A stretch of DNA of 64,000 nucleotides. Source: an uncultured Gammaproteobacteria bacterium (GTDB lineage Bacteria; Patescibacteriota; Patescibacteriia; Magasanikbacterales; GWA2-37-8). Positions within the stretch are counted from its first letter, which is position 1; every line of letters begins with the position of its first letter. The notes beneath the pieces were generated by a model. The model worked only from the letters and a program-made list of their open reading frames with translations. It was not told the DNA's origin and searched no databases. This document shows, one piece after another, positions 27,001 through 60,924 of the stretch. Location of the stretch: contig CAYXJO010000002.1 of the NCBI GenBank assembly GCA_964465205.1, positions 26,350-90,349 on the forward strand. The letters are read 5' to 3'. Made by a program: the position numbers and the translations under genes.

Positions 27001-27215
27001 TTGGCTTGGCGAATAAGTCCACTTCGACATTGTCTGAGTTGACTCTCAACAGTAGTATCACCGGATTTACCAATAAAATTGATTTCAAAAATCATGTGAG
27101 TTTTGATGCAGATACGGTTGGTCGTGCCAGCATTTTGTCTGGCGCCACTAGCACCCGAGTGATATTTACCAAACCGTATGATGAGTTGCCAGTGATTACC
27201 GTTACGGCTATATGA
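18084..27215 (+). CDS. Giant (3043 aa) secreted, repeat-rich, tail-fibre-like surface protein with C-terminal intramolecular-chaperone auto-processing (Peptidase S74-like) domain
   Basis: N-terminal signal/anchor (TLGVVLTLSALVGIGEWVAHA). About 2700 aa rich in G/T/S/N with at least 6 copies of a ~60-aa module (GIGTTTPxYKLDVSGDxN...YSQYFIxxAGxxGQVWxSDGSGxGYW). C-terminus SDSRLKKNVNTLTSALQIIGALRPISYD...GFLAQEVEPLVPQAV...YGQFIPILTAAIKEQQAQIDAL matches the tailspike/endosialidase chaperone domain. Confidence 0.8.
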   Translation: MPNSLSQFGKKIFQTTLGVVLTLSALVGIGEWVAHAATPPLMITYQGKVLVSGAPATTSLNMSFVIYNSVSGGTALYSASGTLSTPLEVNVTPSNGLFSVNLGDTTAAPITNVLDPDIFKNNTNLFLQVTINGQTLSPRKRITASPYAFNALYAATSTYAENAGTSTYASTAGSANTANTSNYANNAGTSTYATNAASALTAVTSTYADLAGNSNLFAGLSTSSFLMPGNDASITGVWSFLSDLTISSTSIGQANITNLRVIGNSYGLQLADINGSSTLIYNTGTYADPAWLTSLAASKIVGTVGSALIANTSTYSYNAGTSTYAYFAGTSTYANIAGSALTAVTATYALNASTSNYANNSGKLEGYGANDFLASSTMALGVTGYMAYYPADGRNIAATNTIYISGGRIGLGTTALDASLAKVTIGGDIFAQNTSGAQLRWNSQGLLLRSPTGTLPRLDLRNDNNEFDFRIQLAGTKGLELFSGPSSTNQVSRLKIDDNGLVGINNSSPNYTLDVDGDINLTGALRVNNIDYSSYFIDGVGSNGQVWTSDGSGRGYWYTLPSASQASGVGTSTANLFAVYNGASTVTGTNELYLDGSYIGVGTTTPHYKLDVSGDLNISGAVRIGGADYSQYFINATGTLGQFWSSNGTGNSRGSWVNSPVNSGLIGQIAYYAAGGGTVSGTSTIYVYNGKIGIGGNTNPNYALDVSGAINSTGGYLINGVNYSQYFIDSAGSAGQVWVSSGTGRGYWYTLPSGSGYGVGTSTVGYMAVYSSDNVVTGTGAMMVSGTAILISTSGIYSASGNPAALTIGGALYADTLYASGNGIFMDNNKIIGIDSGILNVYGANNQSMQLQTYGSGNLSLVSNSTGQMLLQTGSGLMRLFSNTGGISVSTTNSAITVAVGGNNALTLRALQGSITISAPTITVSGTISGAATWHGNTIAVGYGGTGATTFASNGLLVGHGTSAVGTITVPTTTSFLYWNGASYDWTPIEQLSTLTGSVNSSTQGYVAYYDSSGNNLSGTSTVFIQNGRVGIGTVSPTGTLEVSANSLNTVGHLVVNRGNNGGLGGQLTLRNNSAGGSGTSAALAFELDGTTAFGSDGSDQANAQIRAQVTGASDKSTAIIFDTWNGSTSAERMRINANGNVGIGTTGGVYALTVNGDLNLTTSTAGASSTLRINGVDVGQYFINGAGVSGQVWASLGSGRGYWADISSLPIAGAVGTSTAGNIAWYDTTGANVTGTANIFIDPATGYFGVNNTAPATRMQIKGADNKDSGPILSLVGNAPNQFEGGRIRFLEDQSQGYLGAYIQYNASGDVLNIGVHAAADSATSSDTNAISVLRSNGYVGIGNSNPTYKFDVSGDVNIGGAGVLRLGGTNYSQYFISSAGVYGQVWTSDGSGAGWWSDPSIIESDPIFMAASSSFSRTTHNHAGVYEPAFSVLTIGKGGTGTSTISSNVGSLLYSNGTSYQFTNAATANYVLMSQGGVPTWVTTSTLGIVVGAGSGTINSGTAGQVAYYATNGTAVSGTSSLFIATNGYVGVGTSTPPSTLTVSGTLNVLVGGATYTMSNSSNIAGWFNVMNSTLNDYATVSMFHHQVNSTPANGFGTKIGLAGTGYDGVQDYTMGQIGAVWQSASNYYGQLQFFTRNGVDFTGTNSHIPKMVISGYSGNVGIGTTTPDYKLTTAVSADYDGIVLKDTVNKLLFAVVKEGNAGYFNLYDNGVKKIMLHPAANSYYNGSGNFGIGTTTPGALLDIGGGVVNTSISNARLLITANADEASGVQMYNSSAGTAADFRFSVINNNQNEYLAFATPGDGNTASLFGLTRSTANYIFNNAFGAGVSRHLAIGTVRNGDLVFAASSTERMRIANTGYIGIGTTTPNSLLSLYGGANDTRIKMNFVPTGNMYNGLELQKNGIFKGGIFYSNTRDVLELWGSQARMLSVSSTNISLLGSGVERLTVNSSGNVGVGTTTPTYQLDVIASSTANPLRIGSTVTSSILVVNSSGHVGIGTSSPRYQLHIVNSAPREQAVYYQNLHNSYRSMIVADASTDGLGANGSRIDFRAHPTGYSETLFGTTMAGKSALISISTNGLIVGEYNDQPVIFGTNNKERMRIANTGNVGISTTSPNYPLTVNGDINITSSTGGIPALRINGTDMSQYFITSAGTAGQIWQSDGTGAGEWVNTSTLGIVGGGITSESDPIFMAASSSFASSTHNHDGTYEPAFSILTIIKGGTGTSTISSNVGSLLYSDGSAYQFTNASTDNYVLMSQGGVPTWVTTSTLGLVAGIGSGTVNIGTAGQIAYYATDGAAVSGTSSLFVAANGYVGIGTTTPRYSVDAGTGTISALRFRVDSKAMAYWDTAAPNLPSAYPSGTLVLGFAGTVGSAAFPSRLNAYSTSYLETYYNSGNPYFAFIGGNVGVGTTSPSASLSVIAATSTGSIFQVGTTTAQNILTVLANGHVGIGSSTPNSPLVLQYSKSGFGLTIANSLATNYSLMRFLGTGRSYTIGVGNASETSYGLANKWFVFDATSNTARMVVDSVGNIGIGTTTPDASLSIYTTTGAAGIILSDFNSSEGGALSIYDGATSGFLPTIKGQSNGVGGYGVALYGVIPPANDVVNVGGGGVLIRALRSDNTVLQNANVLSVNNYTTNLMTVMANGYVGIGTTTPGSLLDIYGNSTNAVMRILSGNTSNYSYITMGRASVEMSMGVAAAADNGLVGTVAGDVWLKNVNTANKLSIGIGSGAPAITVASSSYIGIGTTTPNYRFTIAGTFTGNDRTAINLANYSTNSDAAISIRFQSGTSTGFIGAYDAAYASLPGLGNTFGVNAVGNATTSLFLMSGSASGVMRFYTGGNNERMRIDSAGNVGIGTTTPAYKFQVYIDASNEGHVSATGDWARTSDSRLKKNVNTLTSALQIIGALRPISYDPITGSNTASGTSLGFLAQEVEPLVPQAVDTNSITGYKSVAYGQFIPILTAAIKEQQAQIDALTIGLANKSTSTLSELTLNSSITGFTNKIDFKNHVSFDADTVGRASILSGATSTRVIFTKPYDELPVITVTAI
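22290..22700 (+). repeat. Intragenic duplicated segment (copy A) of the giant gene, ~80-85% identical to 24640..25050 with a 49-nt identical core
   Basis: tactcatgtctcaaggtggtgtaccgacgtgggtgacgacttcgacgct is present at 22498-22546 and 24838-24886. Flanking protein sequence ESDPIFMAASSSF..THNH..YEPAFS..GGTGTSTISSNVGSLLYS is repeated. Confidence 0.7.
24640..25050 (+). repeat. Intragenic duplicated segment (copy B) of the giant gene
   Basis: See copy A. Confidence 0.7.
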
Positions 27216-45534: not shown

Positions 45535-46482
45535 TTATATTGTTTTCCCCAGTAGCCAAAGAATAATCGCTTTTTGAATATGTTTGCGATTTTCCGCTTG
45601 GTCAAAAATGATGGAATTTTTATGATCAATGGCGTCGCGGGTGATCTCATAGCCGATATGGCAGGGCATGCAGTGCATGATTTTGCATTGGGGCGCGTAG
45701 TTATGAATCAATGCAGTATTCAATTGGAACGGCATAAAAGTGGATTTGCGACGTTGATATTCAGATTCGAATTCCGGCACTACTTTGCCGTCTTTGAAAA
45801 ATTCCATATCCATCCAAGTGTCTGTGTGGACGTAATCGCTGTTGGTCATTGCCTCTTTCAGGTCAGTGGTATAAGTGACCATACCAGTGTCATTAGCCAT
45901 TTTGTTTAATGCTTCGTCCACACTGGGGCCGTTGGCTTCGGGTGCGGCTATGGCCACTTTGATGCCCAACTTCGCGCAGGCTAGTTTTAGGGTATTTGAA
46001 ACGTTGTTTTCAATTCCGAGCCAGGTAATTTTTTTCACATTTTCCAACCCTCCGGAATGTTCAGACATGGTAAGAATATCCCCGAGCGCTTGGCAAGGGT
46101 GGTATTTTTCACTACAAGCGTCGATAACCGGTATTTGGCTATAAGACGCCGCTTGTTCGACATCAGCCGCCTTGAGAGCGCGCATCATGAGTACATCGCC
46201 GAAACGCATCACCGCGCGAATTTCGTCGCCAAAATCCGTGAGAGCGAATTGAGTGTTGCGCGCATCCAAATAAATTCCGTGGCCGCCCAGCTCTGTCATA
46301 CCGGCTTCAAATGACAATCTGGTGCGGGTTGAAGTTTTTTGGAACAACATGATTAGGGTTTGGTTTGGCAGTATGTCCACTGTCTCGCCGGCTTTGTATT
46401 TGGCTTTTAACCTTTGGGCAATTCCCAAAATTTCTAAAATATCTTCTCGACTTTGTTCTTTGAGCGATATAAGGTGACGCAT
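45535..46482 (-). CDS. Ornithine carbamoyltransferase family protein (STRTR...HPxQxLxD...HCxP)
   Basis: [32 protein letters not shown] and IMHCMPCH match the OTC pattern (HCLP-type rather than the HPLP of ATCase). Confidence 0.75.
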   Translation of the reverse strand: MRHLISLKEQSREDILEILGIAQRLKAKYKAGETVDILPNQTLIMLFQKTSTRTRLSFEAGMTELGGHGIYLDARNTQFALTDFGDEIRAVMRFGDVLMMRALKAADVEQAASYSQIPVIDACSEKYHPCQALGDILTMSEHSGGLENVKKITWLGIENNVSNTLKLACAKLGIKVAIAAPEANGPSVDEALNKMANDTGMVTYTTDLKEAMTNSDYVHTDTWMDMEFFKDGKVVPEFESEYQRRKSTFMPFQLNTALIHNYAPQCKIMHCMPCHIGYEITRDAIDHKNSIIFDQAENRKHIQKAIILWLLGKTI

Positions 46483-46485
46483 AAA

Positions 46486-46959
46486 TTAGATTTTATAATC
46501 TTTAATTTCATCTTGCGAATAGGTGCGTTCGCAATAATGACATTTTAATTGTACCATTTTTTCGGCCTGTACGTGAAATATGGTATTCATGGGTTCGTGA
46601 TTAGTAATGCATTTGATATTGGGACACACAATCAACTGTTCAATTGTATCTGGAATTTCCGCTTGAAATTTTTTGTATATTTCAAAGTTGCGAATAATGT
46701 TTATGGTGGCTTCGGGCGCGAGAATCGCTACGCGAGATATTTCCTCTGGGGTTAACTCGCGATTTTCCACTTTGATCAAGTCTTTAAATTTTAATTTTTT
46801 ACTGGGAAAATTTAATCCCACACTGACAATGTGGTTGTCGCTGGCCAAATTGAGGATGCGAATTATTTTGAGTGCTTGTCCGGCGGCGATGTGGTCAATA
46901 GCCGTACCGTCTTTGATGGCAAATACCTTGAACGCGCGTAGATTGTTTTGCGGTTTCAT
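46486..46959 (-). CDS. pyrI: Aspartate carbamoyltransferase regulatory subunit PyrI
   Basis: Zinc domain CPNIKCITNHEP...CHYCERTY. Size is 157 aa, immediately downstream of pyrB. Confidence 0.85.
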   Translation of the reverse strand: MKPQNNLRAFKVFAIKDGTAIDHIAAGQALKIIRILNLASDNHIVSVGLNFPSKKLKFKDLIKVENRELTPEEISRVAILAPEATINIIRNFEIYKKFQAEIPDTIEQLIVCPNIKCITNHEPMNTIFHVQAEKMVQLKCHYCERTYSQDEIKDYKI

Positions 46960-46976
46960 ATTGAGTGAGTAATTAA

Positions 46977-47903
46977 TTATGATAATTTACTAAGTACCAG
47001 TGCCAGTATTGCTTGTCGGACGAATAGGCCATTCTCGGCTTGTTCAAAATAATAGGCGTGTTTGGTTTTGTCCACGTCCGTTGATATTTCGTTTACCCGT
47101 GGCAGGGGATGAAGTATCCTCAAATTAGGCTTGGCATCACCGAGCATGTTTGTGTTTAGCACAAAGGCGTTTTTTACCCGTTCGTAATCCATCGGATCGG
47201 CAAAACGCTCTCCTTGGATGCGGGTCATGTATAGGATATCCACTTTGTTGATTACTTCTTCAATTTTTTTATGTAAAGAAAATTTAATTTTTTTAGATTT
47301 TAGTTCACTGCAGATGTGGCTAGGCATTTGCAGTACTTCGGGTGCTACCAGATATAAAGTAGTGTTAAAATGAGTGAGGGCTTGAGCAAGCGAATGCACA
47401 GTGCGACCGTATTTGAGGTCACCTACTAGCGCGATTTTGAGGCCGGTCAATTTTTTTTGTGTTTCCAAAATTGTAAATAGGTCTAAAAGGGTTTGAGTGG
47501 GGTGTTGGTTGGCGCCATCGCCGCCGTTGATGATTGGTTTATTAGTAGCTTCGGCCGCGCGGCGAGCCGCCCCCTCAATGGGGTGGCGCATGGCTATAAC
47601 ATCTACGTATTGGCCAATTATTTTGACCGCATCATATAATGATTCGCCTTTTTTGGCACTAGTGACAGCGGGATCGGCAAATCCAATCACTCGGCCGCCT
47701 AGCCGTTGCATGGCAGTCTCGAACGATAGGCGGGTGCGCGTGCTTGGTTCGAAGAAGCACGACCCCATCACTTGGCCGTCTAATAGTTTCGGCTGGTTTT
47801 TTTTCTTCAATTCACCAGCGACTTTCAAGATGTGTAGTATCTCTTCTTTGGATAGTTCCGGGATCGAGATAATGTCCCGTCCGAATAGCATTGGTTTGGG
47901 CAT
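46977..47903 (-). CDS. pyrB: Aspartate carbamoyltransferase catalytic subunit PyrB
   Basis: [26 protein letters not shown] and ILHPLPR motifs. Start taken at [13 protein letters not shown] (47903); the upstream in-frame extension overlaps the attenuator. Confidence 0.9.
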
Positions 47904-47991
47904 ATGTAAAAAAATACCGCCTCGGGGGCGGTGACTAAAAAAATAAACAAATAGAGTCTTGGTGGTCTTGGAGAAAAATGGCATTAATCAT
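47904..47991 (-). promoter_or_regulatory. pyrBI-type transcription attenuator: 18-codon leader ORF ([18 protein letters not shown]), U-rich pause tract, GC hairpin ccgcccccgaggcgg, U7, then the pyrB start
   Basis: Leader ORF 47935..47991. Hairpin 47917..47931. A-run 47908-47914 on plus strand = U7 on the mRNA. Leader stop codon abuts the hairpin. Confidence 0.5.
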
Positions 47992-51838: not shown

Positions 51839-52513
51839 CTATTTTTGCGCAAGTTTTAGACGATTTAGGAAGCTGCGACCCACCGTTATACCAACTACAG
51901 TACCTACGATTGCTCCGGCTACAAAATCCGAAAACCAGTGGATGTTGGTGGATATTCCAGTACCAATATATAGTGCGTATAGCGGAGCCAAAAATCTAAT
52001 TATTTTATTTTTGGGGTATAGTGTTAATAAAGCGATCGCCATGGCGAACGCCACAGTAGTGTGCGATGATGGCCAGCCCCAAAATATTCCGCCACGCATG
52101 AAACCAAATTGAAATACATGGCTAATGTCGGTAGTGCCGCCGATTTGGTGAAAAGGTGGCGGTACCCGGCCGGTGAAAGTTTTATAAAATGCCGACACAA
52201 ACCATCCTAGTGCCGCTGCTTGCCCCAAAGCGTAAGCGGTGTTTTTGATTTGTAAATTTTTTAAAAGTTTGCCAAAAATTAACACGATAAACGGTGTGAG
52301 TATTGGTAATAATCCACCCACTATCGCCGCTGGGAAAAGTATGGCTTGCAACGTGTTCGATCGGGTGTGGGTAAAATAAAACCAATCAAATCCACTAACT
52401 ACAATGGTATAAGTGATAATAATGGTTAAAATATGCCAAAAAAATATTTTGCCACGGAAACAACGGATTAAATTTTTTGGTAGTTCAAAGAAAAATCCTG
52501 ACATAACTAACAA
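51839..52513 (-). CDS. PAP2-family (type 2 phosphatidic acid phosphatase-like) membrane phosphatase
   Basis: KxxxxxxRP-like region, PSGH (WPSSHTTVAFAMA) and SRxxxxxHxxxD-like motifs. Multiple TM helices. Confidence 0.8.
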   Translation of the reverse strand: MLVMSGFFFELPKNLIRCFRGKIFFWHILTIIITYTIVVSGFDWFYFTHTRSNTLQAILFPAAIVGGLLPILTPFIVLIFGKLLKNLQIKNTAYALGQAAALGWFVSAFYKTFTGRVPPPFHQIGGTTDISHVFQFGFMRGGIFWGWPSSHTTVAFAMAIALLTLYPKNKIIRFLAPLYALYIGTGISTNIHWFSDFVAGAIVGTVVGITVGRSFLNRLKLAQK

Positions 52514-52563
52514 TTTTATCCAAACCCCGGTTTTGTGCCGGGGTTTGGATAAAACATTATATA

Positions 52564-53112
52564 TTATAATTGTGGTTGTTCAGCGTCCATTTGGCTGGAT
52601 GTTGGAGGTTGGTTTTGGCCTGGCGCCGGCGGCATTGGCTTCGGTGGTTTTTGCGCTCGAACTTCCTCTCGTTGTTTTTTTAGTTCTTCTTTTTTCAGCT
52701 TCAACGCTTCTTGTTTTTGTTTTAGAAATTCCTGTTTCTTTTTCAGCTGTTCTTTGTAAGTTGACAATAAATTTGCTTTAGTGGTTTTGGTGATTTTACG
52801 TATCGCATCCATTTTGGCCTTATATTCATCGCGAATGGCTTTGATTTTTTCGTTCATTTCTTTAATCAAAGCATTAATTTGTTTTTGGTTTTCTTTATTG
52901 ATGATGTTTAGTTCTTTGTTGTAATTCAAAACCGTTCCGGGTGGCGTCGGAGTGGGCGAGGTCATGATTGTTGGGGTGGGTGTTTCGCTGTTTAGTAAAG
53001 TAGGCTCTGTCACAGTGGTCGTGGTAGAATCTTCTTCTTGAGCCTGCGCCGTCACCACGCCGACTGTTAACGCTCCAACCAATATTAATATTGATAAATA
53101 GTATTTCTTCAT
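52564..53112 (-). CDS. Secreted protein: signal peptide, Pro/Thr-rich linker and K/E-rich coiled coil (182 aa)
   Basis: MKKYYLSILILVGALTVGVVTAQA signal. PTPTPP tracts. Heptad-like KEQLKKKQEFLKQKQEALKLKKEELKK. Confidence 0.55.
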   Translation of the reverse strand: MKKYYLSILILVGALTVGVVTAQAQEEDSTTTTVTEPTLLNSETPTPTIMTSPTPTPPGTVLNYNKELNIINKENQKQINALIKEMNEKIKAIRDEYKAKMDAIRKITKTTKANLLSTYKEQLKKKQEFLKQKQEALKLKKEELKKQREEVRAQKPPKPMPPAPGQNQPPTSSQMDAEQPQL

Positions 53113-53208
53113 ATTTTTAATGTTTAATTTGATATTTTTTTCGACATTTAATCACTGTTTAGGATGACGGTATTTTAGCATACTTTGCCAAAATTATAAA
53201 TTATCAAA

Positions 53209-53235
53209 TTTTGCTCCGGGGGCAGGGGTCGAACC
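53209..53235. repeat. 27-nt direct repeat of the tRNA-Asn 3' end (T-loop through discriminator + 4 nt); att-like left boundary of an inserted islet
   Basis: ttttgctccgggggcaggggtcgaacc is identical to 56167..56193. Sequence diverges exactly at the T-stem 5' strand, so no full tRNA is present here. Confidence 0.6.
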
Positions 53236-53458
53236 GACGACTAATTGGTCATACTTATCCAAAGTTTTTGATAAGAGGTGGGTTATATCATTTCCCGAAT
53301 TGATTAGGAGCAGGGTGTTTCGGTTGATATTTTTTCAACCTATTCTCTGTTGAGGTGGTCTTCATATTTTATATTCTCAGAAAATTAAATTGGAAAGAAT
53401 TTATTTTATATGGCATAATTAATACGATAAAAAGATTATTGCAAAATTAGATATTAGT

Positions 53459-54436
53459 ATGAGAACACATATTAAAAAAGTAGTTATATTACCCGGTGAT
53501 GGCATAGGGCAAGAAGTGGTTCCGATAGCTGTCCGTGCGTTAGAAATAATCATAAGAGAAAAAGAGCTGCCAATTGAACTACAGTGGGGTGAAGTCGGAG
53601 AGATTGCCTACCAACACACAGGTCAATATTTTCCTGAATTATCGAAAAAAATATGTGATACTGCTGACGCAATTCTTTTTGGAGCTGTAACTAATAAACC
53701 TCTTTTAGAATTGAGGAAAAGGTATGGTTTGTTTGCAAATATTAGACCTGTTGTGGGAAACAAAGTCGATTTGGTAATTTTTAGAGAACTTACTGGGGGG
53801 ATTTATTTTGGTAAATGTGGAACTAAAACAGTTAGAGGAGTTAAAAAAGGATATCACACAATGGAATATAGCTTACAAGAAATTAAACGAATTGCTAGGT
53901 TGAGTTTTCAATATGCGACTGAGCATAACAAAAAATTAAGTTCATTAGATAAAGATAATGCTTTGCCCTTTTTAAAATGGAGAAAAACAGTAACTCAAGT
54001 TGCCCGGGAGTTTCCCAAAGTAAAATATCAGCATATGTATATAGATAATGCTTTGGCACAGGTGTATAGGGACCCAAAACAATTTCAAGTTGTATTATGT
54101 TCTAATCTTTTTGGTGATCTTTTTAGTGATTTAGCCGCCGAAATTTCTGGGGGATTAAGCACCGCTGCGTCTATTAGTTTGAATGATAAAGGGTTTATAC
54201 TTTGTGAGCCGGTTCATGGTACGGCCCCAGACATAGTTGGTAAGAATATTGCAGATCCCACGGGTGCTTTACGTTCAGTCCAGTTAATGTTAAGTTATTT
54301 CGGATATAAAAATGAAGGACAAATTTTGGAGAAGGCAATCAGCATCACTTTAAGGCAAATTGATAAAAAAATACAGAAATTTTTGACGAAAGATTATGAA
54401 AATAAATTGGTATCTAATATTAAAAAAATAATATGA
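53459..54436 (+). CDS. Isocitrate/3-isopropylmalate dehydrogenase family enzyme (LeuB-like, short form)
   Basis: VILPGDGIGQEVV and NLFGDLFSDLAAEISGGL signatures. AT-rich relative to the rest of the window. Confidence 0.8.
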   Translation: MRTHIKKVVILPGDGIGQEVVPIAVRALEIIIREKELPIELQWGEVGEIAYQHTGQYFPELSKKICDTADAILFGAVTNKPLLELRKRYGLFANIRPVVGNKVDLVIFRELTGGIYFGKCGTKTVRGVKKGYHTMEYSLQEIKRIARLSFQYATEHNKKLSSLDKDNALPFLKWRKTVTQVAREFPKVKYQHMYIDNALAQVYRDPKQFQVVLCSNLFGDLFSDLAAEISGGLSTAASISLNDKGFILCEPVHGTAPDIVGKNIADPTGALRSVQLMLSYFGYKNEGQILEKAISITLRQIDKKIQKFLTKDYENKLVSNIKKII

Positions 54437-56112
54437 AGTTAACAATGATATTAAAAGATAATATTAATACCGATGACATAATTCCTGCGAAATTTTGTTC
54501 TTCTTATGATCCTAATGAGTTAAAAAAACATGTTTTTGAGTATTTATTAAAGAAAAGTGATTTGAAGGGCGTGAAAATTATTCGTGCTGGTGAGAATTTT
54601 GGCTGCGGCAGCAGTAGGGAACATGCAGCGATAGCTCTTAAAGCATTCGGGATAAAAAAGATTATTGCAAAATCATTTTCTGATATTTTCTACAGAAATG
54701 CAATAAATATCGGACTGGAAGTAAGGCAAATATTTGAGAAGAAGACTCCTCTGCTAATTAATAAAATAATTAAAGCCGGAGGATTGTCTAATTTCAACAA
54801 AAAAGAAAATGAATTTTTTAAAAAGGAGAAAAAACAAACCAGAAAAAGGACGATTGTTGAAAAAATTATTCTAAATGCTTGTGGCGGAAAAGGTGTTAAA
54901 GCCGGACAAGTTGTCTTTGCTAGACCGGGTTTGGTTATGAGTCATGATGCTGTTGCTCCAAATGCAATTGATTTGTTTTATGAGCTCTATGGGCGGGGTG
55001 CTAAGATAAAATATCCTGGCAGATTTGTTTTTGTGGGCGATCATTTTATCCAAGCGAACGACATCCGGAGAGATCCAGGCCCTATTAGGCTGTACCAGAA
55101 GATGGTTGGCTTTGCTAAGCAACAGAACATTAAAGTTTACAAAAAAGTAAAAAACAATGAAGCGACTGGAATTTGTCATATTCTTTTGCCAGAGAAAGGG
55201 CACATCTTGCCAGGGCAATTTGTGGTGGGGACGGATAGTCACTCCTCGACTTATGGTGCATTAGGTGTCTTTTCTAGAGCGATAGGCACTACTGATTTGG
55301 TAAACCTTCTCAAAACAGGAGAAGTGTGGCTGGAAGTTCCCGAAACGATAAAAATAACAATTAACGGAAAATTAAAAAAAGGAGTTACAGCAAAAGATGT
55401 AATATTATTTGTGATTAAAGACTTGGGAAAAAACGCACAGGGCAAGGTGCTTGAATTCTATGGGGATGTAATTAAGGATTTAGATATTGACGAAAGATTT
55501 GTGTTGGCGAACATGTCTATTGAAGCGGGCGCGATGTGTGGAATTGTGCCTGTTGATAAAAAGACAATTGAATATTTGAAGAAAAAAACAAAAAAGAAAT
55601 TTGTTAAAGTTTTTGCTGACAAAGAAGCAAAATATATTTTTGAAAAAAAATACAATTTATCTTCATTGAGTCAGCAAGTTGCAAAGCCGTATTCTCCTGT
55701 AAATACAGTAACTAGGGATAGCTTGAAAAAGATAAAAATTAATAATGCATATATAGGTAGTTGCACAGGTGGCAAGTTGAACGACTTGAGAATGGCCGCT
55801 GAAGCACTAAAAGACAAAAAGATCAACGCCGAAGTAAAATTATATGTTGTTCCTGCGACCCAAGAAATAAAAAAACAAGCAGCCTTTTTAGGATATCTGG
55901 ATATTTTTAAGAAGGCCGGTGCAGTAATCTTGCCATCAGGGTGTGGTGCTTGCATTAATGCTGGTAGAGGAGTTTTGCAAAATAATGAAATCGGTATTTT
56001 TGCCACAAATCGTAATTTTATCGGTAGAAATGGACATCCTGATTCAAAAGTATATTTAGCCTCTCCCGTTGTGGTGGCAGAATCAGCAATCAGCGGATAT
56101 ATAGGAAATTAG
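54433..56112 (+). CDS. Aconitase-family dehydratase: fused LeuD-like swivel domain (N-terminal) + LeuC-like catalytic domain
   Basis: N-terminal NINTDDIIPAKF...GENFGCGSSREHA (LeuD). Then GTDSHSSTYGALG, GSCTGGKLNDL and PSGCGACINAG (three Fe-S Cys ligands, LeuC). Start overlaps the leuB-like stop. Confidence 0.8.
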   Translation: MKLTMILKDNINTDDIIPAKFCSSYDPNELKKHVFEYLLKKSDLKGVKIIRAGENFGCGSSREHAAIALKAFGIKKIIAKSFSDIFYRNAINIGLEVRQIFEKKTPLLINKIIKAGGLSNFNKKENEFFKKEKKQTRKRTIVEKIILNACGGKGVKAGQVVFARPGLVMSHDAVAPNAIDLFYELYGRGAKIKYPGRFVFVGDHFIQANDIRRDPGPIRLYQKMVGFAKQQNIKVYKKVKNNEATGICHILLPEKGHILPGQFVVGTDSHSSTYGALGVFSRAIGTTDLVNLLKTGEVWLEVPETIKITINGKLKKGVTAKDVILFVIKDLGKNAQGKVLEFYGDVIKDLDIDERFVLANMSIEAGAMCGIVPVDKKTIEYLKKKTKKKFVKVFADKEAKYIFEKKYNLSSLSQQVAKPYSPVNTVTRDSLKKIKINNAYIGSCTGGKLNDLRMAAEALKDKKINAEVKLYVVPATQEIKKQAAFLGYLDIFKKAGAVILPSGCGACINAGRGVLQNNEIGIFATNRNFIGRNGHPDSKVYLASPVVVAESAISGYIGN

Positions 56113-56171
56113 ATAATCAAAAAAGCAAAAAACAGTGCAATTTATTATTTATCACATTGTGTTTATTTTTG

Positions 56172-56243
56172 CTCCGGGGGCAGGGGTCGAACCTGCGATA
56201 TCCACGTTAACAGCGTGGCGTTGTACCACTCAACTACCCCGGA
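56172..56243 (-). tRNA. tRNA-Asn (anticodon GTT), CCA not encoded
   Basis: Manual cloverleaf: acceptor tccgggg/ccccgga, D-stem gttg/caac, anticodon stem ccacg/cgtgg with loop ctGTTaa, T-stem gcagg/cctgc, T-loop ttcgacc. Confidence 0.85.
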
Positions 56244-56408: not shown

Positions 56409-57239
56409 TTATGATTTGTGTTCTGCCTCATGAAATAGCACAACCATGGCGGTTACAAAAAGTGGTGCTACCAATATGCTAATTATGATTGCCGCTAGGC
56501 TCAAAATTACATCTAATATTCCACCTATTTTAGTGCCAAGTTGCATCAACATTCCGGTAGCTACGGCACTTACTACCCAGACCAAAAACATTGGCGCCAC
56601 AAAACGCCATAGAATTCCCCACCAACGTCCGGCTACCAAAAGTTGGCTTTCTTTTATGGATTTGACAACCGGCGCTCCATAAATCGCGGTTTCCATCCAA
56701 GCGAACAAAAGACGTACGTAGTATCGCACCAAATGGATAAGAGAATAAAACGTCAGTAAAATGAATAATATTTTGATAGCCGGGGTGAAGTTTTCAATGC
56801 CGTCATTGTGTAGCAAAAGACTGGCGATAATATACAGAGCGCTGGTAGTCAGTAGCGGCCACAAAGCGTAAAGATTGGTCATAATGATTGTGCCCAATCC
56901 ACGCAATAATACTTTGGACGATTTTTTTAGTGTATTAATTACTGTGTCCGGTTTATTATTGCCATAAACAGTGCTGATTGTTTTTACAAATGCGAATTTA
57001 AACCATAATCCGGCCACACTTATGAGAAAAGAGAATAACACAACAAGCGCCGCGATTGACGCCGCTACACCTTTGTCGACGTATAAAGCGGCGAAAATTA
57101 ATGGGATGCTAACCAGATACATGACCAGTGTAATTAATGCGGGGACAAAACTCAACAAAATATATTTGACGTATGTGCCAAAGTTTTTTTTGTACAAAAA
57201 ATAGCTTCGGCTGATAATTTCTCCGGCCCCAATAAGCAT
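56409..57239 (-). CDS. Hypothetical polytopic membrane protein (276 aa)
   Basis: ORF with 6-7 hydrophobic helices. No family recognised. Confidence 0.5.
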   Translation of the reverse strand: MLIGAGEIISRSYFLYKKNFGTYVKYILLSFVPALITLVMYLVSIPLIFAALYVDKGVAASIAALVVLFSFLISVAGLWFKFAFVKTISTVYGNNKPDTVINTLKKSSKVLLRGLGTIIMTNLYALWPLLTTSALYIIASLLLHNDGIENFTPAIKILFILLTFYSLIHLVRYYVRLLFAWMETAIYGAPVVKSIKESQLLVAGRWWGILWRFVAPMFLVWVVSAVATGMLMQLGTKIGGILDVILSLAAIIISILVAPLFVTAMVVLFHEAEHKS

Positions 57240-57953: not shown

Positions 57954-59414
57954 TTAACTATTAGGTTTTTTTGGCATGAAGTTGAACGCCGGATTGAACA
58001 TAGTAGATGCCCAGGAAGCCGAGCCTTCTTCCATATTGACGCGAATGTATTTGGCCAACAATGGCTGCACTTCGTTGAGTTTGTGCCACATGGCTTGGGC
58101 GATACGGCGATAAGAAATATGACCCTTGAGACCAGAACGCAAAGAAATGAAGTGATGTAATTCGCGTAGATTAGCAGTAATTAGCGTACGTTTGCGAAAT
58201 CCCAGCGGCACTACATACTGTGCTTCTACAGGGAATCTTACGTATATTTTTTGGTATAAAGCCGCGGCTTTTTCCATGGTGGCGCGATATTTTTCTTCCA
58301 ATCCAGCTTCTATTATTTCAGTTGGGGTCTCGAAACCGTGTATGATTGTTACGGCTTGGTTGGTCTGGGTGCACATGCGGTGACGTTGAACATCGCGAAA
58401 AGCGCCGTAATCCATAAGTACATCAAATGTATAATATACATGTTCGAGTTCACGCAGTGGAGCGTCAAATGAGGCGCGACGCGCAAGTGATTTTTCGATT
58501 ATTTTTTCTTTTTGTGATTGCTCCATTTTTTTCACTGTTTCCAGAATTTGGTTGTATGGCAATTGTGAAAAACGATATAGCAAACTAGCCACCAATTTAT
58601 TTTCGGCATCGTGATCATAATCCACCAAAGTGACCGGGCTCACCGGAGTGGGGTCGGCTGTGAGTGTGGTGTTGGCAAGTGTTTGTAACTCTGGCAAGGT
58701 TTCTTTGGTGTATTGATTTTCGTCGGCAAATTTGATGAGAGTGGGGACTATCTTGAGCGCCTCCTCTTTCATCGTGCGCCCAATATCTTGCATTTCGTCC
58801 AATGGGTGTGACAAAAATTTCACAATCGCATGTTCAAGTACGCGCGCGTTGGCAGTCATGCCTAAATTAGTGAGAGTAGCAGTGGGCAAAAGATAACGGT
58901 TGTTGTCACAAACGCGCGCTTTGATAGTGGCGGCGTAGGCCTTTTCCATTTCGTCTTCTTTGCGCGGGTATTTTTTGGATATAAATGCATGCATCGGTTC
59001 GTACATGGCCGTATAGGTGTCGTAAATTTCGTTCATGGTATTTTCAAACTCGCCAGCCAAATCGGATTGCATAATTTTTTCCGGTTTGAAATAACGATCG
59101 CGATCGAACACTTGGTAGCGAGTTGATTTTTCGGTATAAGATGCCAAGCGATTATCCTCGATGACTTTGGTGGCCAGAATAGAGACATTTTCTAACGCTA
59201 AGTGCAAAGTAGCGTGTTCGGCGACGCTACTGTGGCCATAGCCAACTACCCATTTCTCGTGAAAATCAGCCGATTTTTCATCAGTAAGTTCGGATGCGAT
59301 GTCGGCAAAAGATTCGGGGGAGCGAGAACATTTCGCGAATGCTACCGCCACTACTTCCGGTTTGAGATGGTCGAGTGAGTAAACAGATAACTTATTTTTG
59401 CTAGAAGTGTTCAT
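57954..59414 (-). CDS. thyX: Flavin-dependent thymidylate synthase ThyX, tandem-duplicated (pseudo-dimeric) 486-aa form
   Basis: Half 1: HSSVAEHATLHL...DNRLASYTEKSTRY (S-x-RY kept, RHR degenerated to DNR). Half 2: ELEHVYYTFDV...RDVQRHRMCTQTNQA (RHR kept, S-x-RY lost). Also LITANLRELHHFISLRS. Confidence 0.8.
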   Translation of the reverse strand: MNTSSKNKLSVYSLDHLKPEVVAVAFAKCSRSPESFADIASELTDEKSADFHEKWVVGYGHSSVAEHATLHLALENVSILATKVIEDNRLASYTEKSTRYQVFDRDRYFKPEKIMQSDLAGEFENTMNEIYDTYTAMYEPMHAFISKKYPRKEDEMEKAYAATIKARVCDNNRYLLPTATLTNLGMTANARVLEHAIVKFLSHPLDEMQDIGRTMKEEALKIVPTLIKFADENQYTKETLPELQTLANTTLTADPTPVSPVTLVDYDHDAENKLVASLLYRFSQLPYNQILETVKKMEQSQKEKIIEKSLARRASFDAPLRELEHVYYTFDVLMDYGAFRDVQRHRMCTQTNQAVTIIHGFETPTEIIEAGLEEKYRATMEKAAALYQKIYVRFPVEAQYVVPLGFRKRTLITANLRELHHFISLRSGLKGHISYRRIAQAMWHKLNEVQPLLAKYIRVNMEEGSASWASTMFNPAFNFMPKKPNS

Positions 59415-59427
59415 ATTTTTTTAGATA

Positions 59428-60924
59428 TTAAGCGGCTTTACTACGATCCGTTTGTTCAGTGTTGGATTCGTTAGCGATTATTTGGCGTAGAGCTTCTCCG
59501 GTCTGTAATTTGTATTGTTCTGTGCCCAGATCGTAATCCATTCTTCCTTCTGATCGCGCCCATTGTCGGCGTAGATCGTCCACTTGTTGTTTTACAATAT
59601 CGTTGTTGCCGGGTAATTGTTCATATATAGCATGCCAGACATATTTATTCTGATTTTCTTCAGGAGTATTGTAGGGGTTACCCATCTCAGCTTTTTTCTG
59701 GTCAAATAATTTTTTCAAACCATTGGTGTCATAATCAGATTGGGTGTAGTCGGCTTGAGTTTCTCGGGTAGTGGTAGAATTTGGCCCATCGACTGTGGTG
59801 ATCATCGGTGGCACTACCTCTAATTTTGGTTTGGCACTATCTCGATTGTCAGCTATGTCGTTATGAGCCTCTTCTTCGGTCATAGGGTGGCCGATCATGT
59901 TGCCGCCATAATTTTCTACCCGTGGCATACCAGAAGTTGTTTCGTCTTCATCTTCATCTAGATTTACTGCGTCTTTTGTTGTCGGAATAACCTCCAGATC
60001 TGTCAGAAACTCTTTTGGTACAGAAAATTCTTCCCCTTTTGAATTGACGAGGTTTATTTCTCCATTATTGGACATGCCGTTGAATGTGAGTATTTCTCCG
60101 CTAACAACATCTTTCAACTTATCTCCAATTTTAAACGGCATTGAAGTTTCTTTTTGAGCAACCGTCGGTTCGGTGTTGGAAATGCTTGTTTGCGCGACTG
60201 CTTCTGGTGTTGTTTTATTTTTGGCCACTGGTATATCCATTTCATCAATTGTTATGCCATCGTCTTCTAATGATTTTCCAATTTGTCTAGCGGCTTCTAT
60301 CCGAGCCAATTCTTCCATATTACCAGATGCCAAAGCGGCATCAGCCGCCGCATCATACGTAGCTGTTTTTTGCGCTTGGGCGAGCGATTCGACCTCGGCT
60401 TGTTTTTTATTGGCTTCAACACTAGCCATTTCCGCTTTTTGTTCGGCAATTGCTTCTTGTGTCATTTTTTGCCATTCTATTTCTTCGTCAGCACCCTCGA
60501 GGGCGGCATCAATGGGGTCGATGTCATCTTGAGCGTGGGCAAATAGAGCTTGTTCTTCTGCTTCCAGCTTGTCTATTTCCTCCATATTGATTTCTCCTTC
60601 TTCTGGATGATTTTTACTAATGGTTTTAGCCAGATCTCTGATGCGCTGGAATAACCCGCGTGTTTCTTTGCTAGTAGACTGTATAGCGCCCTTTACTTCC
60701 TGTACTGTTTCTTGGGCTAATTGTTCTGATACTTTTTTAGCATCTTTTTCTTGATCAGCCAGATACCGCTCCTTTTTTTGTAAATATTGACTAAAAGCCT
60801 CGACATCGCCCAACATACCTTTGAGATAGTCTTTAATACCTGGCTTTTGTGGTCGGCGTGCGTCCACTGCCTGTCCGGCGCGCAGTTGTTCCTCTTTGGA
60901 CATTTGCTCTGGTTGATTGGCCAT
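59428..60924 (-). CDS. Hypothetical acidic, low-complexity (E/A/K/D-rich) protein, 498 aa
   Basis: ORF with no signal peptide and no recognised domain. Confidence 0.5.
   Translation of the reverse strand: MANQPEQMSKEEQLRAGQAVDARRPQKPGIKDYLKGMLGDVEAFSQYLQKKERYLADQEKDAKKVSEQLAQETVQEVKGAIQSTSKETRGLFQRIRDLAKTISKNHPEEGEINMEEIDKLEAEEQALFAHAQDDIDPIDAALEGADEEIEWQKMTQEAIAEQKAEMASVEANKKQAEVESLAQAQKTATYDAAADAALASGNMEELARIEAARQIGKSLEDDGITIDEMDIPVAKNKTTPEAVAQTSISNTEPTVAQKETSMPFKIGDKLKDVVSGEILTFNGMSNNGEINLVNSKGEEFSVPKEFLTDLEVIPTTKDAVNLDEDEDETTSGMPRVENYGGNMIGHPMTEEEAHNDIADNRDSAKPKLEVVPPMITTVDGPNSTTTRETQADYTQSDYDTNGLKKLFDQKKAEMGNPYNTPEENQNKYVWHAIYEQLPGNNDIVKQQVDDLRRQWARSEGRMDYDLGTEQYKLQTGEALRQIIANESNTEQTDRSKAA

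What the first reader, a model, noticed from the sequence alone, without database searches (positions are those of the whole stretch)
53209..56243. 2.9-kb AT-rich islet (leuB-like + fused leuD/leuC-like) bounded by a direct repeat of the tRNA-Asn 3' end
A 27-nt copy of the tRNA-Asn 3' end (53209-53235) is repeated exactly at the 3' end of the intact tRNA-Asn (56167-56193). This is the classic attL/attR signature of site-specific integration into a tRNA gene. The intervening DNA is markedly more AT-rich than the flanks. It carries only an IDH/IMDH-family dehydrogenase and an unusual single-chain LeuD-LeuC-type dehydratase; no leuA and no integrase are present. It looks like a decayed integrative islet delivering two consecutive steps of a 2-oxoacid chain-elongation pathway (leucine-like, homoaconitase-like or coenzyme-B-like) to an otherwise biosynthesis-poor genome.
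Basis: partly seen in the sequence, partly recalled or inferred. Interest (0 to 1): 0.6.

Follow-up and report, generated by a model that had tools for sequence, protein, structure and literature searches.

The report
Foreign two-enzyme islet at tRNA-Asn
A 2.9-kb piece of foreign DNA carrying two leucine-pathway-like enzymes sits at the end of a tRNA-Asn gene in an ultra-small (CPR) bacterium, its closest relative is in an archaeon, and although the case is tidy, this kind of gene acquisition is already known.

Summary
An exact 27-nt copy of the tRNA-Asn(GTT) 3' end (53209-53235) repeats at the intact tRNA (56167-56193). None is expected by chance. It brackets 2,931 bp of 34.8% GC in a 43.8% GC window.

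The host is a Candidatus Magasanikbacteria (CPR) bacterium. Nine relatives share the flanking gene order but lack the islet.

The islet holds two translationally coupled genes:
- a "mini" IPMDH-type dehydrogenase that lacks the 14-aa lid (as HphB does) and a 16-aa arm;
- a single-chain LeuD-LeuC [4Fe-4S] isomerase.

This fusion is not unusual. It is a large, mostly cyanobacterial family, which JGI labels homoaconitate hydratase or 3-benzylmalate isomerase.

The nearest relative of both genes (58% and 53% identity; 100/100 bootstrap for the isomerase) is the same gene pair in a low-GC archaeal contig. The next relative carries an upstream 2-alkylmalate synthase.

The 64-kb window contains no integrase and no synthase.

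Best reading: a horizontally acquired, integrase-less, att-flanked islet (CIME-like). It supplies the isomerase and dehydrogenase steps of a 2-oxoacid elongation or 2-alkylmalate salvage route for an uncharged side chain.

No empty site could be found, so the integration mechanism is inferred. This is a new member of known kinds and of moderate interest.

The parts
53209..53235 (-). Distal att-like repeat. A 27-nt fragment identical to the 3' end of tRNA-Asn plus 3-5 nt of trailer, taken to be the displaced original 3' end of the tRNA (attR-type junction).
   Evidence: Exact match to 56167-56193 with 0 expected by chance. Upstream of it the T-stem 5' half is not conserved (TCGTCGG against TCGCAGG), so this is a fragment and not a second tRNA.
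53236..53458 (+). Non-coding leader of the islet (223 nt), with a promoter-like site at 53390-53419 and a small hairpin at 53322-53340.
   Evidence: Consensus scan only. No Rfam family was found, so no T-box or riboswitch. tblastn found no remnant of a synthase gene here.
53459..54436 (+). Lid-less, arm-less "mini" IPMDH/HphB-like beta-decarboxylating dehydrogenase, 325 aa.
   Evidence: PF00180 at 7.9e-84. Best NCBIfam match is leuB, but below its cut-off (269 against 353 bits). Best PDB matches are IPMDHs. The 14-aa lid and the 16-aa arm are both missing, while R86, R96, R109, Y116, K165, D196, D220 and D224 are invariant. Model pLDDT is 87.3.
54433..56112 (+). Single-chain LeuD(N)-LeuC(C) aconitase-family [4Fe-4S] hydro-lyase/isomerase (HphCD-like), 559 aa. 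Its start overlaps the dehydrogenase stop (ATGA).
   Evidence: PF00694 at residues 46-95 and PF00330 at 157-555. It passes the NCBIfam subfamily cut-offs PRK00402 (455.8 against 385) and hacA_fam (424.5 against 385.7). Cys444, Cys504, Cys507 and the GSSRE motif are invariant. Model pLDDT is 87.6. The best whole-chain structural match is E. coli AcnB (TMq 0.82) and the best local match is M. jannaschii HacA.
56113..56166 (+). 54-nt trailer between the isomerase stop codon and the tRNA-proximal repeat.
   Evidence: Read directly from the sequence. It is too short to hold any gene remnant.
56167..56193 (-). tRNA-proximal att-like repeat (attL-type junction). It forms the functional 3' end of tRNA-Asn.
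56171..56243 (-). Intact tRNA-Asn(GTT), the target gene.
   Evidence: ARAGORN. Rfam RF00005 at 67.9 bits. It is orthologous to the tRNA-Asn of relative L008.

Best explanation
The segment 53236-56166 is a horizontally acquired two-gene metabolic cassette. It entered the chromosome of a Candidatus Magasanikbacteria (CPR) bacterium by Campbell-type recombination between a circular DNA and the 3' end of tRNA-Asn(GTT).

The incoming DNA supplied a 27-bp stretch identical to the tRNA end. This rebuilt the tRNA at the proximal junction and left the displaced original 3' end as the distal repeat. The element carries no recombinase of its own. It therefore behaves like a cis-mobilizable element (att sites kept, integration genes absent). 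It must have been inserted by an integrase acting in trans or, less likely, by RecA acting on the 27-bp identity.

The cargo is an operon of two translationally coupled enzymes. The fused LeuD-LeuC [4Fe-4S] hydro-lyase isomerises a 2-alkylmalate to the 3-alkylmalate through the alkylmaleate. The lid-less IPMDH/HphB-type dehydrogenase then oxidatively decarboxylates the 3-alkylmalate to a 2-oxoacid plus CO2 and NAD(P)H.

The side chain handled is probably uncharged (aliphatic or aromatic), not the carboxyalkyl chain of homocitrate or coenzyme-B intermediates.

The condensing synthase that normally starts the cycle is not in the islet, not in the 64-kb window, and not in the 16 kb around the archaeal sister cassette. 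The pair therefore either works with a synthase encoded elsewhere, or salvages externally supplied alkylmalates or alkylmaleates into 2-oxoacids.

Shown: the repeat, the composition, the gene identities, the intact catalytic residues, the archaeal sister relationship, and absence from the syntenic locus of relatives.

Inferred: the integration mechanism, the direction of transfer, the substrate, and the physiological role.
For: Repeat and geometry.

Composition: islet 34.8% GC against 43.8%, z = -4.6. The dehydrogenase has the lowest GC3 in the window.

Host identity and synteny: ThyX relatives are named Magasanikbacteria or Patescibacteria. Nine of them show ThyX-Tmk-membrane protein-GatB with no islet.

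Foreign origin: among 5.8 billion proteins the best non-self hit of the isomerase is 58% identical (P0002). The best hits of the dehydrogenase are 60% (P0122) and 53% (P0123). P0002 and P0123 are adjacent, in the same order and with the same 4-nt overlap, on contigs that also encode ribosomal protein L15e and an archaeal-type ThrRS editing domain. In a neighbour-joining tree of 120 fused proteins, window+P0002 has 100/100 bootstrap support, and adding P0003 also has 100/100.

The archaeal cassette has the GC of its own genome (29.5% against 29.2%). That fits a low-GC donor lineage.

The next relative (L084) has a 2-alkylmalate synthase directly upstream of the same two genes. The pair therefore derives from a complete elongation operon.

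A relative's tRNA-Asn (L008) carries a 17-nt copy of its own 3' end 93 nt downstream. This suggests the site is used recurrently for recombination in this clade.

Enzymes intact.

Substrate hints: the loop reads IIPAKFCSSYDP, against YLRT in HacB and YLVY in LeuD. The family-conserved Arg21 is Phe here. The IPMDH Leu-Leu motif is kept and the 14-aa lid is absent, as reported for HphB, which is promiscuous for the side chain.

CIME definition: PMC6323972. Genomic islands in Patescibacteria and CPR-DPANN gene exchange are already reported: PMC12455944.
Against: No integrase or other site-specific recombinase is present in the islet or anywhere in the 64-kb window.

No empty attB, attP or cognate element was found. 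The 24- and 27-mers are absent from IMG/VR and from JGI metagenome contigs. No close relative of the host is sampled: the best PAP2 hit is 65% identical and the flanking membrane protein has no hit.

The relatives that lack the islet also lack the tRNA-Asn, p182, PAP2 and gatCA at this position. The comparison shows a rearranged locus rather than a clean insertion.

Gene-level compositional deviation is moderate, and three host genes have a similar GC3.

The nearest homologues are only 53-60% identical. No donor is identified, and the transfer may be old or indirect.

Without a synthase, the pathway assignment is incomplete.
Confidence: 0.62

Rival explanations
1. The islet is the last unit of a larger or composite island that accreted at tRNA-Asn. 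The neighbouring p182 and PAP2 genes (51839-53112) would be older foreign cargo whose outer att site has decayed. The integrase was lost by deletion or lies outside the window.
For: GC stays low (37-40%) from about 52000 to 53200. The best homologues of PAP2 (up to 65% identity) sit on large genomes or carry non-CPR names such as Nitrospiraceae, Syntrophobacter and Dissulfurispiraceae. Relatives go straight from the membrane protein to gatB, so everything from tRNA-Asn to gatA is extra at this position.
Against: No third tRNA-Asn fragment was found, even at 9 mismatches in 30. The essential host genes gatC and gatA lie in the same extra stretch, so much of the difference is ordinary rearrangement. 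The 2.9-kb unit has two perfect repeats and no internal remnants.
Confidence: 0.15
2. Insertion used homologous recombination rather than an integrase. A circular or transformed DNA fragment happened to carry a tRNA-Asn 3' segment, for example because the donor's cassette lay next to its own tRNA. It recombined through the 27-bp identity using the host RecA/RuvABC system.
For: RecA, RuvA and RuvC are encoded in the window, and no integrase is. To my knowledge, 27 bp is about the minimal length for RecA-dependent exchange in E. coli. The archaeal sister cassette lies about 0.9 kb from a tRNA-Ile that shows a local duplication of its 3' end.
Against: Recombination on 27 bp is very inefficient. 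The repeat spans exactly the T-loop-to-3'-end segment that tyrosine integrases of tRNA-targeting elements typically use. The relative L008 shows a similar scar at the same tRNA.
Confidence: 0.12
3. The two genes are long-resident in this lineage, and the repeat is a by-product of local rearrangement (a partial tRNA duplication) unrelated to their arrival.
For: The locus is rearranged relative to all sampled relatives. Short duplications of tRNA 3' ends occur without cargo in L008 and L001. GC3 of the isomerase is within the host range.
Against: The repeat brackets exactly the two compositionally deviant, phylogenetically foreign genes, with 223 and 54 nt to spare. The sister is archaeal with 100/100 support.
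Confidence: 0.07
4. The structure is an assembly artefact. A fragment from another population was stitched into the contig at a shared 27-mer.
For: The source is a metagenome-assembled contig. P0001 is seen on one contig only. A probable frameshift in rpoB hints at imperfect sequence quality.
Against: Two independent chimeric joins at the same 27-mer would be needed. The foreign piece would itself have to carry the 27-mer at both ends, which is again an integrated islet. The distal junction has its own distinct flanking sequence.
Confidence: 0.04

Closest known systems
tRNA-gene-targeted genomic islands, specifically cis-mobilizable elements (CIMEs) as defined for ICE-derived elements (PMC6323972)
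   Same: The insert lies 3' of an intact tRNA gene. It is bracketed by a direct repeat of the tRNA 3' segment, has atypical composition, carries cargo genes only, and has no integration or transfer genes.
   Different: No cognate ICE, IME or phage with the same att core is known. At 2.9 kb the islet is very small. The host is a CPR bacterium and the cargo's sister is archaeal. Mobility is untested.
hphB / hphCD of the homophenylalanine-homotyrosine homologation pathway of Nostoc punctiforme PCC 73102 (described in bioRxiv 10.64898/2026.06.15.732371, PMC12961565, PMC6562525)
   Same: An IPMDH-like dehydrogenase without the 14-aa lid is paired with a single polypeptide that combines the LeuC and LeuD functions. 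JGI labels several family members "3-benzylmalate isomerase". The chemistry is the same.
   Different: Identity to cyanobacterial family members is only about 41-44% for the dehydrogenase and about 50% for the isomerase. The window dehydrogenase also lacks a 16-aa arm. The conserved loop Arg21 is Phe. No hphA-type synthase and no NRPS context are present. I could not compare with the characterised Nostoc sequences themselves, and their domain order is recalled from memory (Koketsu et al. 2013).
LeuCD + LeuB (leucine biosynthesis) and the methanogen enzymes HacAB + AksF (coenzyme B / homoaconitase)
   Same: Same folds, same Fe-S ligands, same catalytic residues. The best solved-structure matches are M. 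jannaschii HacA and LeuC, HacB and LeuD, and bacterial IPMDHs.
   Different: The subunits are fused in the order small then large. The small-subunit domain lacks about 35 central residues. The specificity loop is neither YLRT nor YLVY. All equivalog cut-offs are missed: leuB 269 against 353, LEU2 419 against 611, HacA_Meth 365 against 550, AksF 168-185 against 500-540.
Aconitase B (AcnB) domain arrangement
   Same: The swivel (domain 4, LeuD-like) domain precedes domains 1-3 in the chain. AcnB gives the best whole-chain structural superposition (TMq 0.82).
   Different: Sequence identity is 19%. There is no HEAT-like N-terminal domain. The protein is much smaller, and a different substrate is expected.
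Maleate hydratase (LeuCD-like) plus D-malate dehydrogenase (decarboxylating; LeuB-like), a synthase-independent two-enzyme route from an unsaturated dicarboxylate to pyruvate (from my own knowledge, not tested)
   Same: It is a two-gene, synthase-free combination of the same two enzyme families. HphB is reported to turn over D-malate and 3-methylmalate.
   Different: No sequence comparison with characterised maleate hydratases or DmlA was made here. This is a functional analogy only.

Membership tests
tRNA-targeted integrative genomic island (tyrosine-integrase type) | Direct repeat of the tRNA 3' segment bounding the insert, with an intact tRNA at one end and the same orientation | tested here: met
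   27 of 27 nt at 53209-53235 and 56167-56193. tRNA-Asn lies at 56171-56243 on the minus strand with the insert 3' of it.
tRNA-targeted integrative genomic island (tyrosine-integrase type) | Element-encoded integrase or recombinase | tested here: not met
   The islet holds only two ORFs, both metabolic. Pfam scans of the other window ORFs of at least 90 aa, except the two largest (11896-15768 and 18084-27215) and a few short ones, found only RecA, RuvA, RuvC and FtsK.
tRNA-targeted integrative genomic island (tyrosine-integrase type) | Atypical base composition and codon usage | tested here: met
   34.8% against 43.8% GC, z = -4.6, and highest tetranucleotide distance. GC3 is 0.255 and 0.311 against a host mean of 0.448.
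tRNA-targeted integrative genomic island (tyrosine-integrase type) | Unoccupied attB in related genomes | tested here: inconclusive
   Nine relatives lack the islet, but they also lack tRNA-Asn at this locus. No closer relative exists in the searched collections.
tRNA-targeted integrative genomic island (tyrosine-integrase type) | Excision to a circular form (attP) or strain-level presence/absence | not testable with these tools
   This needs the raw reads of the source metagenome.
Cis-mobilizable element (CIME) | Retains attL and attR but has no integration or transfer genes | tested here: met
   Both repeats are perfect and no such genes are present. Definition taken from PMC6323972.
Cis-mobilizable element (CIME) | A cognate integrase-bearing element with the same att specificity exists | tested here: inconclusive
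   The 27-mer is absent from IMG/VR and the 24-mer from JGI metagenomes. The rest of the genome could not be inspected.
Isocitrate/isopropylmalate dehydrogenase family (PF00180), IPMDH/HphB branch | Family fold and catalytic residues (substrate Arg triad, Tyr/Lys pair, metal Asp triad) | tested here: met
   PF00180 at 282 bits. R86, R96, R109, Y116, K165, D196, D220 and D224 are invariant in alignment A3. The model matches IPMDH structures at TMq 0.81-0.87.
Isocitrate/isopropylmalate dehydrogenase family (PF00180), IPMDH/HphB branch | LeuB equivalog score (TIGR00169) | tested here: not met
   269.3 bits against a cut-off of 353.2. All other equivalogs are also missed.
Isocitrate/isopropylmalate dehydrogenase family (PF00180), IPMDH/HphB branch | HphB hallmark: absence of the 14-aa active-site lid conserved in IPMDHs | tested here: met
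   There is a 14-column gap after GAV, shared with the cyanobacterial 338-346-aa proteins and absent from the canonical LeuBs in A3. The hallmark is described in bioRxiv 10.64898/2026.06.15.732371. The exact position of the lid was matched from the text only, because the figure is not held.
Fused LeuD-LeuC (HphCD-like) aconitase-superfamily hydro-lyase | Small-subunit domain followed by large-subunit domain in one chain | tested here: met
   PF00694 at residues 46-95 and PF00330 at 157-555. All 120 listed best homologues are 558-584 aa with the same order.
Fused LeuD-LeuC (HphCD-like) aconitase-superfamily hydro-lyase | Three Cys ligands of the [4Fe-4S] cluster and the catalytic Ser motif of the swivel domain | tested here: met
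   C444, C504, C507 and G57-C58-G59-S60-S61-R62-E63 are invariant in alignment A1.
Fused LeuD-LeuC (HphCD-like) aconitase-superfamily hydro-lyase | NCBIfam subfamily thresholds (PRK00402, hacA_fam) | tested here: met
   455.8 against 385 and 424.5 against 385.7 bits.
Fused LeuD-LeuC (HphCD-like) aconitase-superfamily hydro-lyase | Activity on 2- and 3-benzylmalate, or identity to the characterised N. punctiforme HphCD | not tested
Only JGI's labels on homologues link the family to this name.
Methanogen homoaconitase (HacAB) | Small-subunit specificity loop YLRT, with Arg recognising the distal carboxylate | tested here: not met
   The window has FCSS at the aligned positions. The equivalogs HacA_Meth and HacB_Meth are missed.
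Complete 2-oxoacid elongation module (synthase + isomerase + dehydrogenase) | LeuA/HphA/CimA/NifV-type (HMGL-like) condensing enzyme | tested here: not met
   tblastn of the L084 synthase against the whole window gave a best E-value of 0.36. Pfam scans found no HMGL-like domain. The synthase is present upstream of the same gene pair in L084. The rest of the genome could not be inspected.

The most novel reading that the evidence does not exclude
The synthase-less dehydrogenase + fused isomerase pair may be a self-sufficient, mobile salvage module. It would circulate between ultra-small symbionts of both domains (CPR bacteria and DPANN-like archaea) on integrase-less, tRNA-targeted mini-elements. 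It would let them turn pathway intermediates leaked by hosts or neighbours (2-alkylmalates such as 2-isopropylmalate or citramalate, or alkylmaleates) into 2-oxoacids, and hence into amino acids and NADH, without owning the committed first step.
Probability: 0.15. Interest if true: 0.7.

Novelty: new member of a known kind. Interest (0 to 1): 0.38.

Why it matters
CPR bacteria and DPANN archaea have minimal biosynthetic capacity, so each acquired metabolic gene says something about what they take from partners.

Here a compact cassette is caught with both insertion junctions intact. Its only close relative is in an archaeon, and in both organisms no initiating synthase is found nearby.

Suppose the pair works on imported intermediates. 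It would then be a concrete, testable example of "pathway-fragment" metabolism in symbionts, and of cross-domain gene sharing between the two ultra-small radiations.

The lid-less and arm-less dehydrogenase is also the smallest version of the IPMDH scaffold I encountered in these searches. It may interest enzyme engineers working on amino-acid homologation.

If the pair simply complements a synthase elsewhere in the genome, the finding is an ordinary genomic islet.

Tried and rejected
**Searches for an empty site or a cognate element**
- The flanking membrane protein (56409-57236) against JGI metagenome contigs found nothing.
- The 24-nt tRNA/att core against JGI metagenome contigs gave 0 hits.
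- The 27-mer against IMG/VR gave 0 hits.
- The fused protein against IMG/VR gave 0 hits.
- The whole islet by blastn against GenBank phages matched only unrelated tRNA-Asn genes.
- The fused protein by tblastn against plasmids matched only split leuC/leuD at 43% identity or less.
- The PAP2 neighbour against 5.8 billion proteins, to find a close relative of the host, gave a best hit of 65% identity, apparently non-CPR.
- Looking up P0001 to extend the contig failed because it is not indexed. The remaining roughly 66 kb of the 130-kb source contig and the rest of the genome could therefore not be checked for an integrase or a synthase.

**Regulatory RNA in the leader**
- The Rfam E-value scan found none.

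**A third, degenerate att copy that would show tandem accretion**
- None was found.

**Readings rejected**
- Isocitrate or homoisocitrate dehydrogenase. All such equivalogs score far below cut-off, and the Leu-Leu pocket is IPMDH-like.
- Homoaconitase. The loop lacks the Arg.
- Pseudogenes. Both ORFs are full length, catalytic residues are intact, the same deletions are shared by homologues only 53-60% identical, and the models are confident.
- The 37-nt duplication at tRNA-Ile in the archaeal contig as the boundary of the cassette there. The two copies are only 102 nt apart and lie upstream of the cassette.

Full report

Yes. The window has a single tRNA gene, tRNA-Asn(GTT), on the minus strand at 56171-56243 (ARAGORN). 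Rfam places it at 56172-56243 with 67.9 bits.

The 27-mer TTTTGCTCCGGGGGCAGGGGTCGAACC occurs exactly at 53209-53235 and 56167-56193 and nowhere else, even with three mismatches. No match appeared in 100 dinucleotide-preserving shuffles.

Read on the tRNA strand, the repeat is GGTTCGACCCCTGCCCCCGGAGCAAAA. It covers the T-loop, the 3' half of the T-stem, the 3' acceptor strand, the discriminator and a few trailer bases. Beyond it the two copies diverge (TCGCAGG in the tRNA, TCGTCGG in the distal copy). The distal copy is therefore a fragment and not a second gene.

The intact tRNA is at one end, the insert lies 3' of it, and the fragment is at the far end in the same orientation. This is the textbook product of a single crossover between a circular element and the 3' part of a tRNA gene.

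**2. Composition**

The 2,931 bp between the repeats are 34.8% GC, against 43.8% for the rest of the window. That is z = -4.6 against equal-length windows elsewhere. The same stretch has the largest tetranucleotide distance from the window.

The dehydrogenase gene has the lowest GC3 of 50 ORFs (0.255). The isomerase has 0.311, against a mean of 0.448 with sd 0.078.

The contrast is real but not extreme. GC is also lowish for about 1 kb on either side, and three ordinary genes have a comparable GC3.

**3. Host and locus**

Relatives of the neighbouring ThyX gene are MAGs named Candidatus Magasanikbacteria or Patescibacteria, at 69-81% identity. The window encodes GatCAB, RecA, RuvABC, FtsK and RpoB. 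The host is therefore a CPR bacterium.

Nine relatives share a conserved block: dUTPase-like gene, ThyX, Tmk, a membrane protein, GatB, RuvA and so on.

In the window, the membrane protein and GatB are separated by 6.7 kb that the relatives lack at this position. That stretch holds tRNA-Asn, the islet, a secreted coiled-coil protein (p182), a PAP2 phosphatase, and gatC-gatA.

The islet is therefore absent from the syntenic locus of all sampled relatives. However, the tRNA is absent there too, so this is not a clean empty-site comparison.

No closer relative could be found. The flanking membrane protein has no relative in JGI metagenome contigs. The att core is absent there and from IMG/VR. The best homologue of the PAP2 gene among 5.8 billion proteins is 65% identical.

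One relative (L008) offers indirect support. Its orthologous tRNA-Asn is followed, 93 nt downstream, by an exact 17-nt copy of its own 3' end. This looks like an att scar and suggests that the site is used repeatedly in this clade.

**4. The cargo**

There are two ORFs with a 4-nt ATGA overlap.

The first ORF (53459-54436, 325 aa) is a PF00180 beta-decarboxylating dehydrogenase.
- Its best family and structure matches are 3-isopropylmalate dehydrogenases.
- It misses every equivalog threshold (leuB 269 against 353 bits).
- In alignment A3 it lacks the 14 residues that follow the GAV motif in canonical LeuB. A 2026 preprint reports that HphB, the terminal enzyme of the cyanobacterial Phe/Tyr homologation pathway, lacks a conserved 14-aa active-site lid and is correspondingly promiscuous for the side chain.
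- It also lacks a further 16 residues, corresponding, from my knowledge of IPMDH structures, to the dimer arm. Only its two nearest homologues share this deletion.
- All substrate-, metal- and catalysis-related residues are invariant, and the IPMDH Leu-Leu motif is kept.
- The AlphaFold model is confident (pLDDT 87.3).

The second ORF (54433-56112, 559 aa) carries the LeuD-type swivel domain at its N-terminus and the LeuC-type domains after a Lys/Glu-rich linker.
- It passes the NCBIfam subfamily thresholds for the "aconitase/IPM dehydratase large subunit" and "homoaconitate hydratase" families, but no equivalog threshold.
- The three cluster cysteines and the GSSRE serine motif are invariant.
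- The model (pLDDT 87.6) superposes best over its whole length on E. coli aconitase B, which has the same permuted domain order (TMq 0.82). Locally it superposes best on M. jannaschii HacA and LeuC.
- The small-subunit specificity loop reads IIPAKFCSSYDP. M. jannaschii homoaconitase has YLRT at the aligned positions and the isopropylmalate isomerase has YLVY.
- The Arg that binds the distal carboxylate in HacB is therefore absent. An Arg conserved in the other 12 aligned family members is Phe here.

Together these features point to an uncharged side chain, aliphatic or aromatic. They argue against the homoaconitase and coenzyme-B options.

**5. The fusion is not unusual**

All 120 listed best homologues (at least 48% identity) are 558-584-aa single chains with the same architecture. 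Most are cyanobacterial: Stanieria, Nostoc, Pleurocapsa, Synechococcus PCC 7335. They are annotated "homoaconitate hydratase family protein" or, by JGI, "3-benzylmalate isomerase".

Their genomic contexts vary:
- stand-alone;
- next to an HMGL-like synthase, an adenylating enzyme and a radical-SAM enzyme;
- in L084, a complete operon of synthase (with an N-terminal methyltransferase domain), dehydrogenase and isomerase.

**6. Origin**

The closest non-self homologue of the isomerase is P0002 (58% identity). The closest homologues of the dehydrogenase are P0122 (60%) and P0123 (53%), after which identity drops to about 44%.

P0123 and P0002 are adjacent, in the same order and with the same 4-nt overlap. 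Their contigs are 29% GC and also encode ribosomal protein L15e and a ThrRS with the archaeal editing domain, so they come from an archaeon. "DPANN-like" is my inference from the low GC and the gene content.

In a neighbour-joining tree of the 120 fused proteins, window+P0002 is recovered in 100/100 bootstraps. Adding P0003 (the synthase-bearing operon) also gives 100/100.

In the archaeon the cassette has the same GC as the rest of the contig (29.5% against 29.2%). In the CPR host it is 9 points below. A low-GC lineage of that kind is therefore the more likely source, but at 58% identity no direct donor is identified.

Genomic islands in Patescibacteria and gene exchange between Patescibacteria and DPANN archaea have been reported before (PMC12455944). 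The phenomenon itself is not new.

**7. What is missing**

No integrase or other site-specific recombinase is present in the islet or in the 64-kb window. No HMGL-like synthase is present either (tblastn best E = 0.36). The archaeal contigs likewise show no synthase within 16 kb, but they do have a convergent MFS transporter abutting the cassette.

The 223-nt leader and the 54-nt trailer hold no gene remnants and no Rfam element.

The islet is thus a clean att-cargo-att unit. This matches the definition of a cis-mobilizable element: att sites retained, integration and transfer genes absent (PMC6323972). It does not look like a visibly decayed prophage or ICE.

**8. Most likely mechanism**

Shown: the repeat, the composition, the gene identities, the intact active sites, the archaeal sister relationship, and absence from the syntenic locus of relatives.

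Inferred:
- A circular DNA carrying the two genes and a 27-bp tRNA-Asn-like core recombined with the tRNA gene. An integrase supplied in trans is most likely. RecA-mediated exchange on 27 bp is a weaker alternative.
- The operon is transcribed from its own leader. A promoter-like site lies at 53390-53419.
- The fused isomerase converts a 2-alkylmalate to a 3-alkylmalate, and the lid-less dehydrogenase converts that to a 2-oxoacid, CO2 and NAD(P)H.

The pair could complete a cycle started by a synthase encoded elsewhere. Alternatively it could salvage external alkylmalates or alkylmaleates. Possible examples are 2-isopropylmalate to 2-oxoisocaproate, citramalate or citraconate to 2-oxobutyrate, and maleate or D-malate to pyruvate. 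HphB is reported to accept D-malate and 3-methylmalate. Which of these applies cannot be decided here.

**9. Rivals**

These are treated in the structured fields:
- a composite, accreted island that includes p182 and PAP2;
- RecA-mediated insertion;
- resident genes with an unrelated tRNA duplication;
- an assembly artefact.

None explains the exact bracketing of the two foreign genes as well as integration does. The first two are variants of the main explanation rather than contradictions of it.

**10. Verdict**

Its interpretation is essentially right, with corrections on the "unusual" fusion, the pathway type and the word "decayed".

The feature is a new member of known kinds: a tRNA-flanked, integrase-less genomic islet carrying an HphB/HphCD-like enzyme pair.

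What lifts it above routine is the cross-domain sister relationship, and the fact that the pair stands without a nearby synthase in both small-genome organisms that carry it (the CPR host and the archaeon). This makes a pathway-fragment salvage role worth testing.

Noticed in passing
window 8456-11867: rpoB is split into two overlapping ORFs in different frames (8456-10792 and 10680-11867). The frame changes around 10737-10745, between ...DVR and TKLGPE.... This is either a sequencing or assembly frameshift in an A-run or a genuine frameshift.
   Followed up: partly
window 45535-47984: Three genes lie between gatB and ruvA: pyrB-like (46977-47984), pyrI (46486-46959) and a second carbamoyltransferase (45535-46482). 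In at least five relatives gatB and ruvA are directly adjacent. This may be another acquired metabolic block.
   Followed up: partly
window 51839-53112: The PAP2 phosphatase gene just outside the distal repeat has its best homologues (55-65% identity) on large genomes or under non-CPR names (Nitrospiraceae, Syntrophobacter, Dissulfurispiraceae). It lies with p182 in 37-40% GC DNA that relatives lack at this locus. It may be older foreign cargo at the same hotspot.
   Followed up: partly
window 59428-60924: A 498-aa ORF with no Pfam match sits between the dUTPase-like gene and ThyX. Relatives have either nothing or an unrelated 1-2 kb gap there. Only L010 shows a weak partial hit.
   Followed up: no
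L008 4778-4794 and 4888-4904: In a related Magasanikbacterium, the last 17 nt of tRNA-Asn are repeated exactly 93 nt downstream of the tRNA with no cargo between them. This looks like an att scar.
   Followed up: partly
L001 3620-3656 and 3722-3758: In the archaeal contig, the last 10 nt of tRNA-Ile plus 27 nt of trailer are duplicated exactly, 102 nt apart. This lies about 0.8 kb upstream of the sister cassette and does not bracket it.
   Followed up: partly
L084 155-1897: The 2-alkylmalate synthase upstream of the related cassette carries an N-terminal SAM-methyltransferase domain in the same polypeptide (580 aa). I did not see this fusion described in the papers I read.
   Followed up: no
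window 57954-59414 and loci L024-L034: The double-domain ThyX (486 aa) of this CPR bacterium has 49-60% identical homologues on contigs labelled Aenigmatarchaeota or uncultured archaeon. This is another gene shared between CPR and DPANN-type genomes.
   Followed up: no
window 18084-27215: A single 3,043-aa ORF occupies 9.1 kb. It was not analysed.
   Followed up: no
window 52514-52554: A perfect 17-bp inverted repeat lies between the end of p182 and the start of PAP2. It is likely a bidirectional terminator.
   Followed up: no
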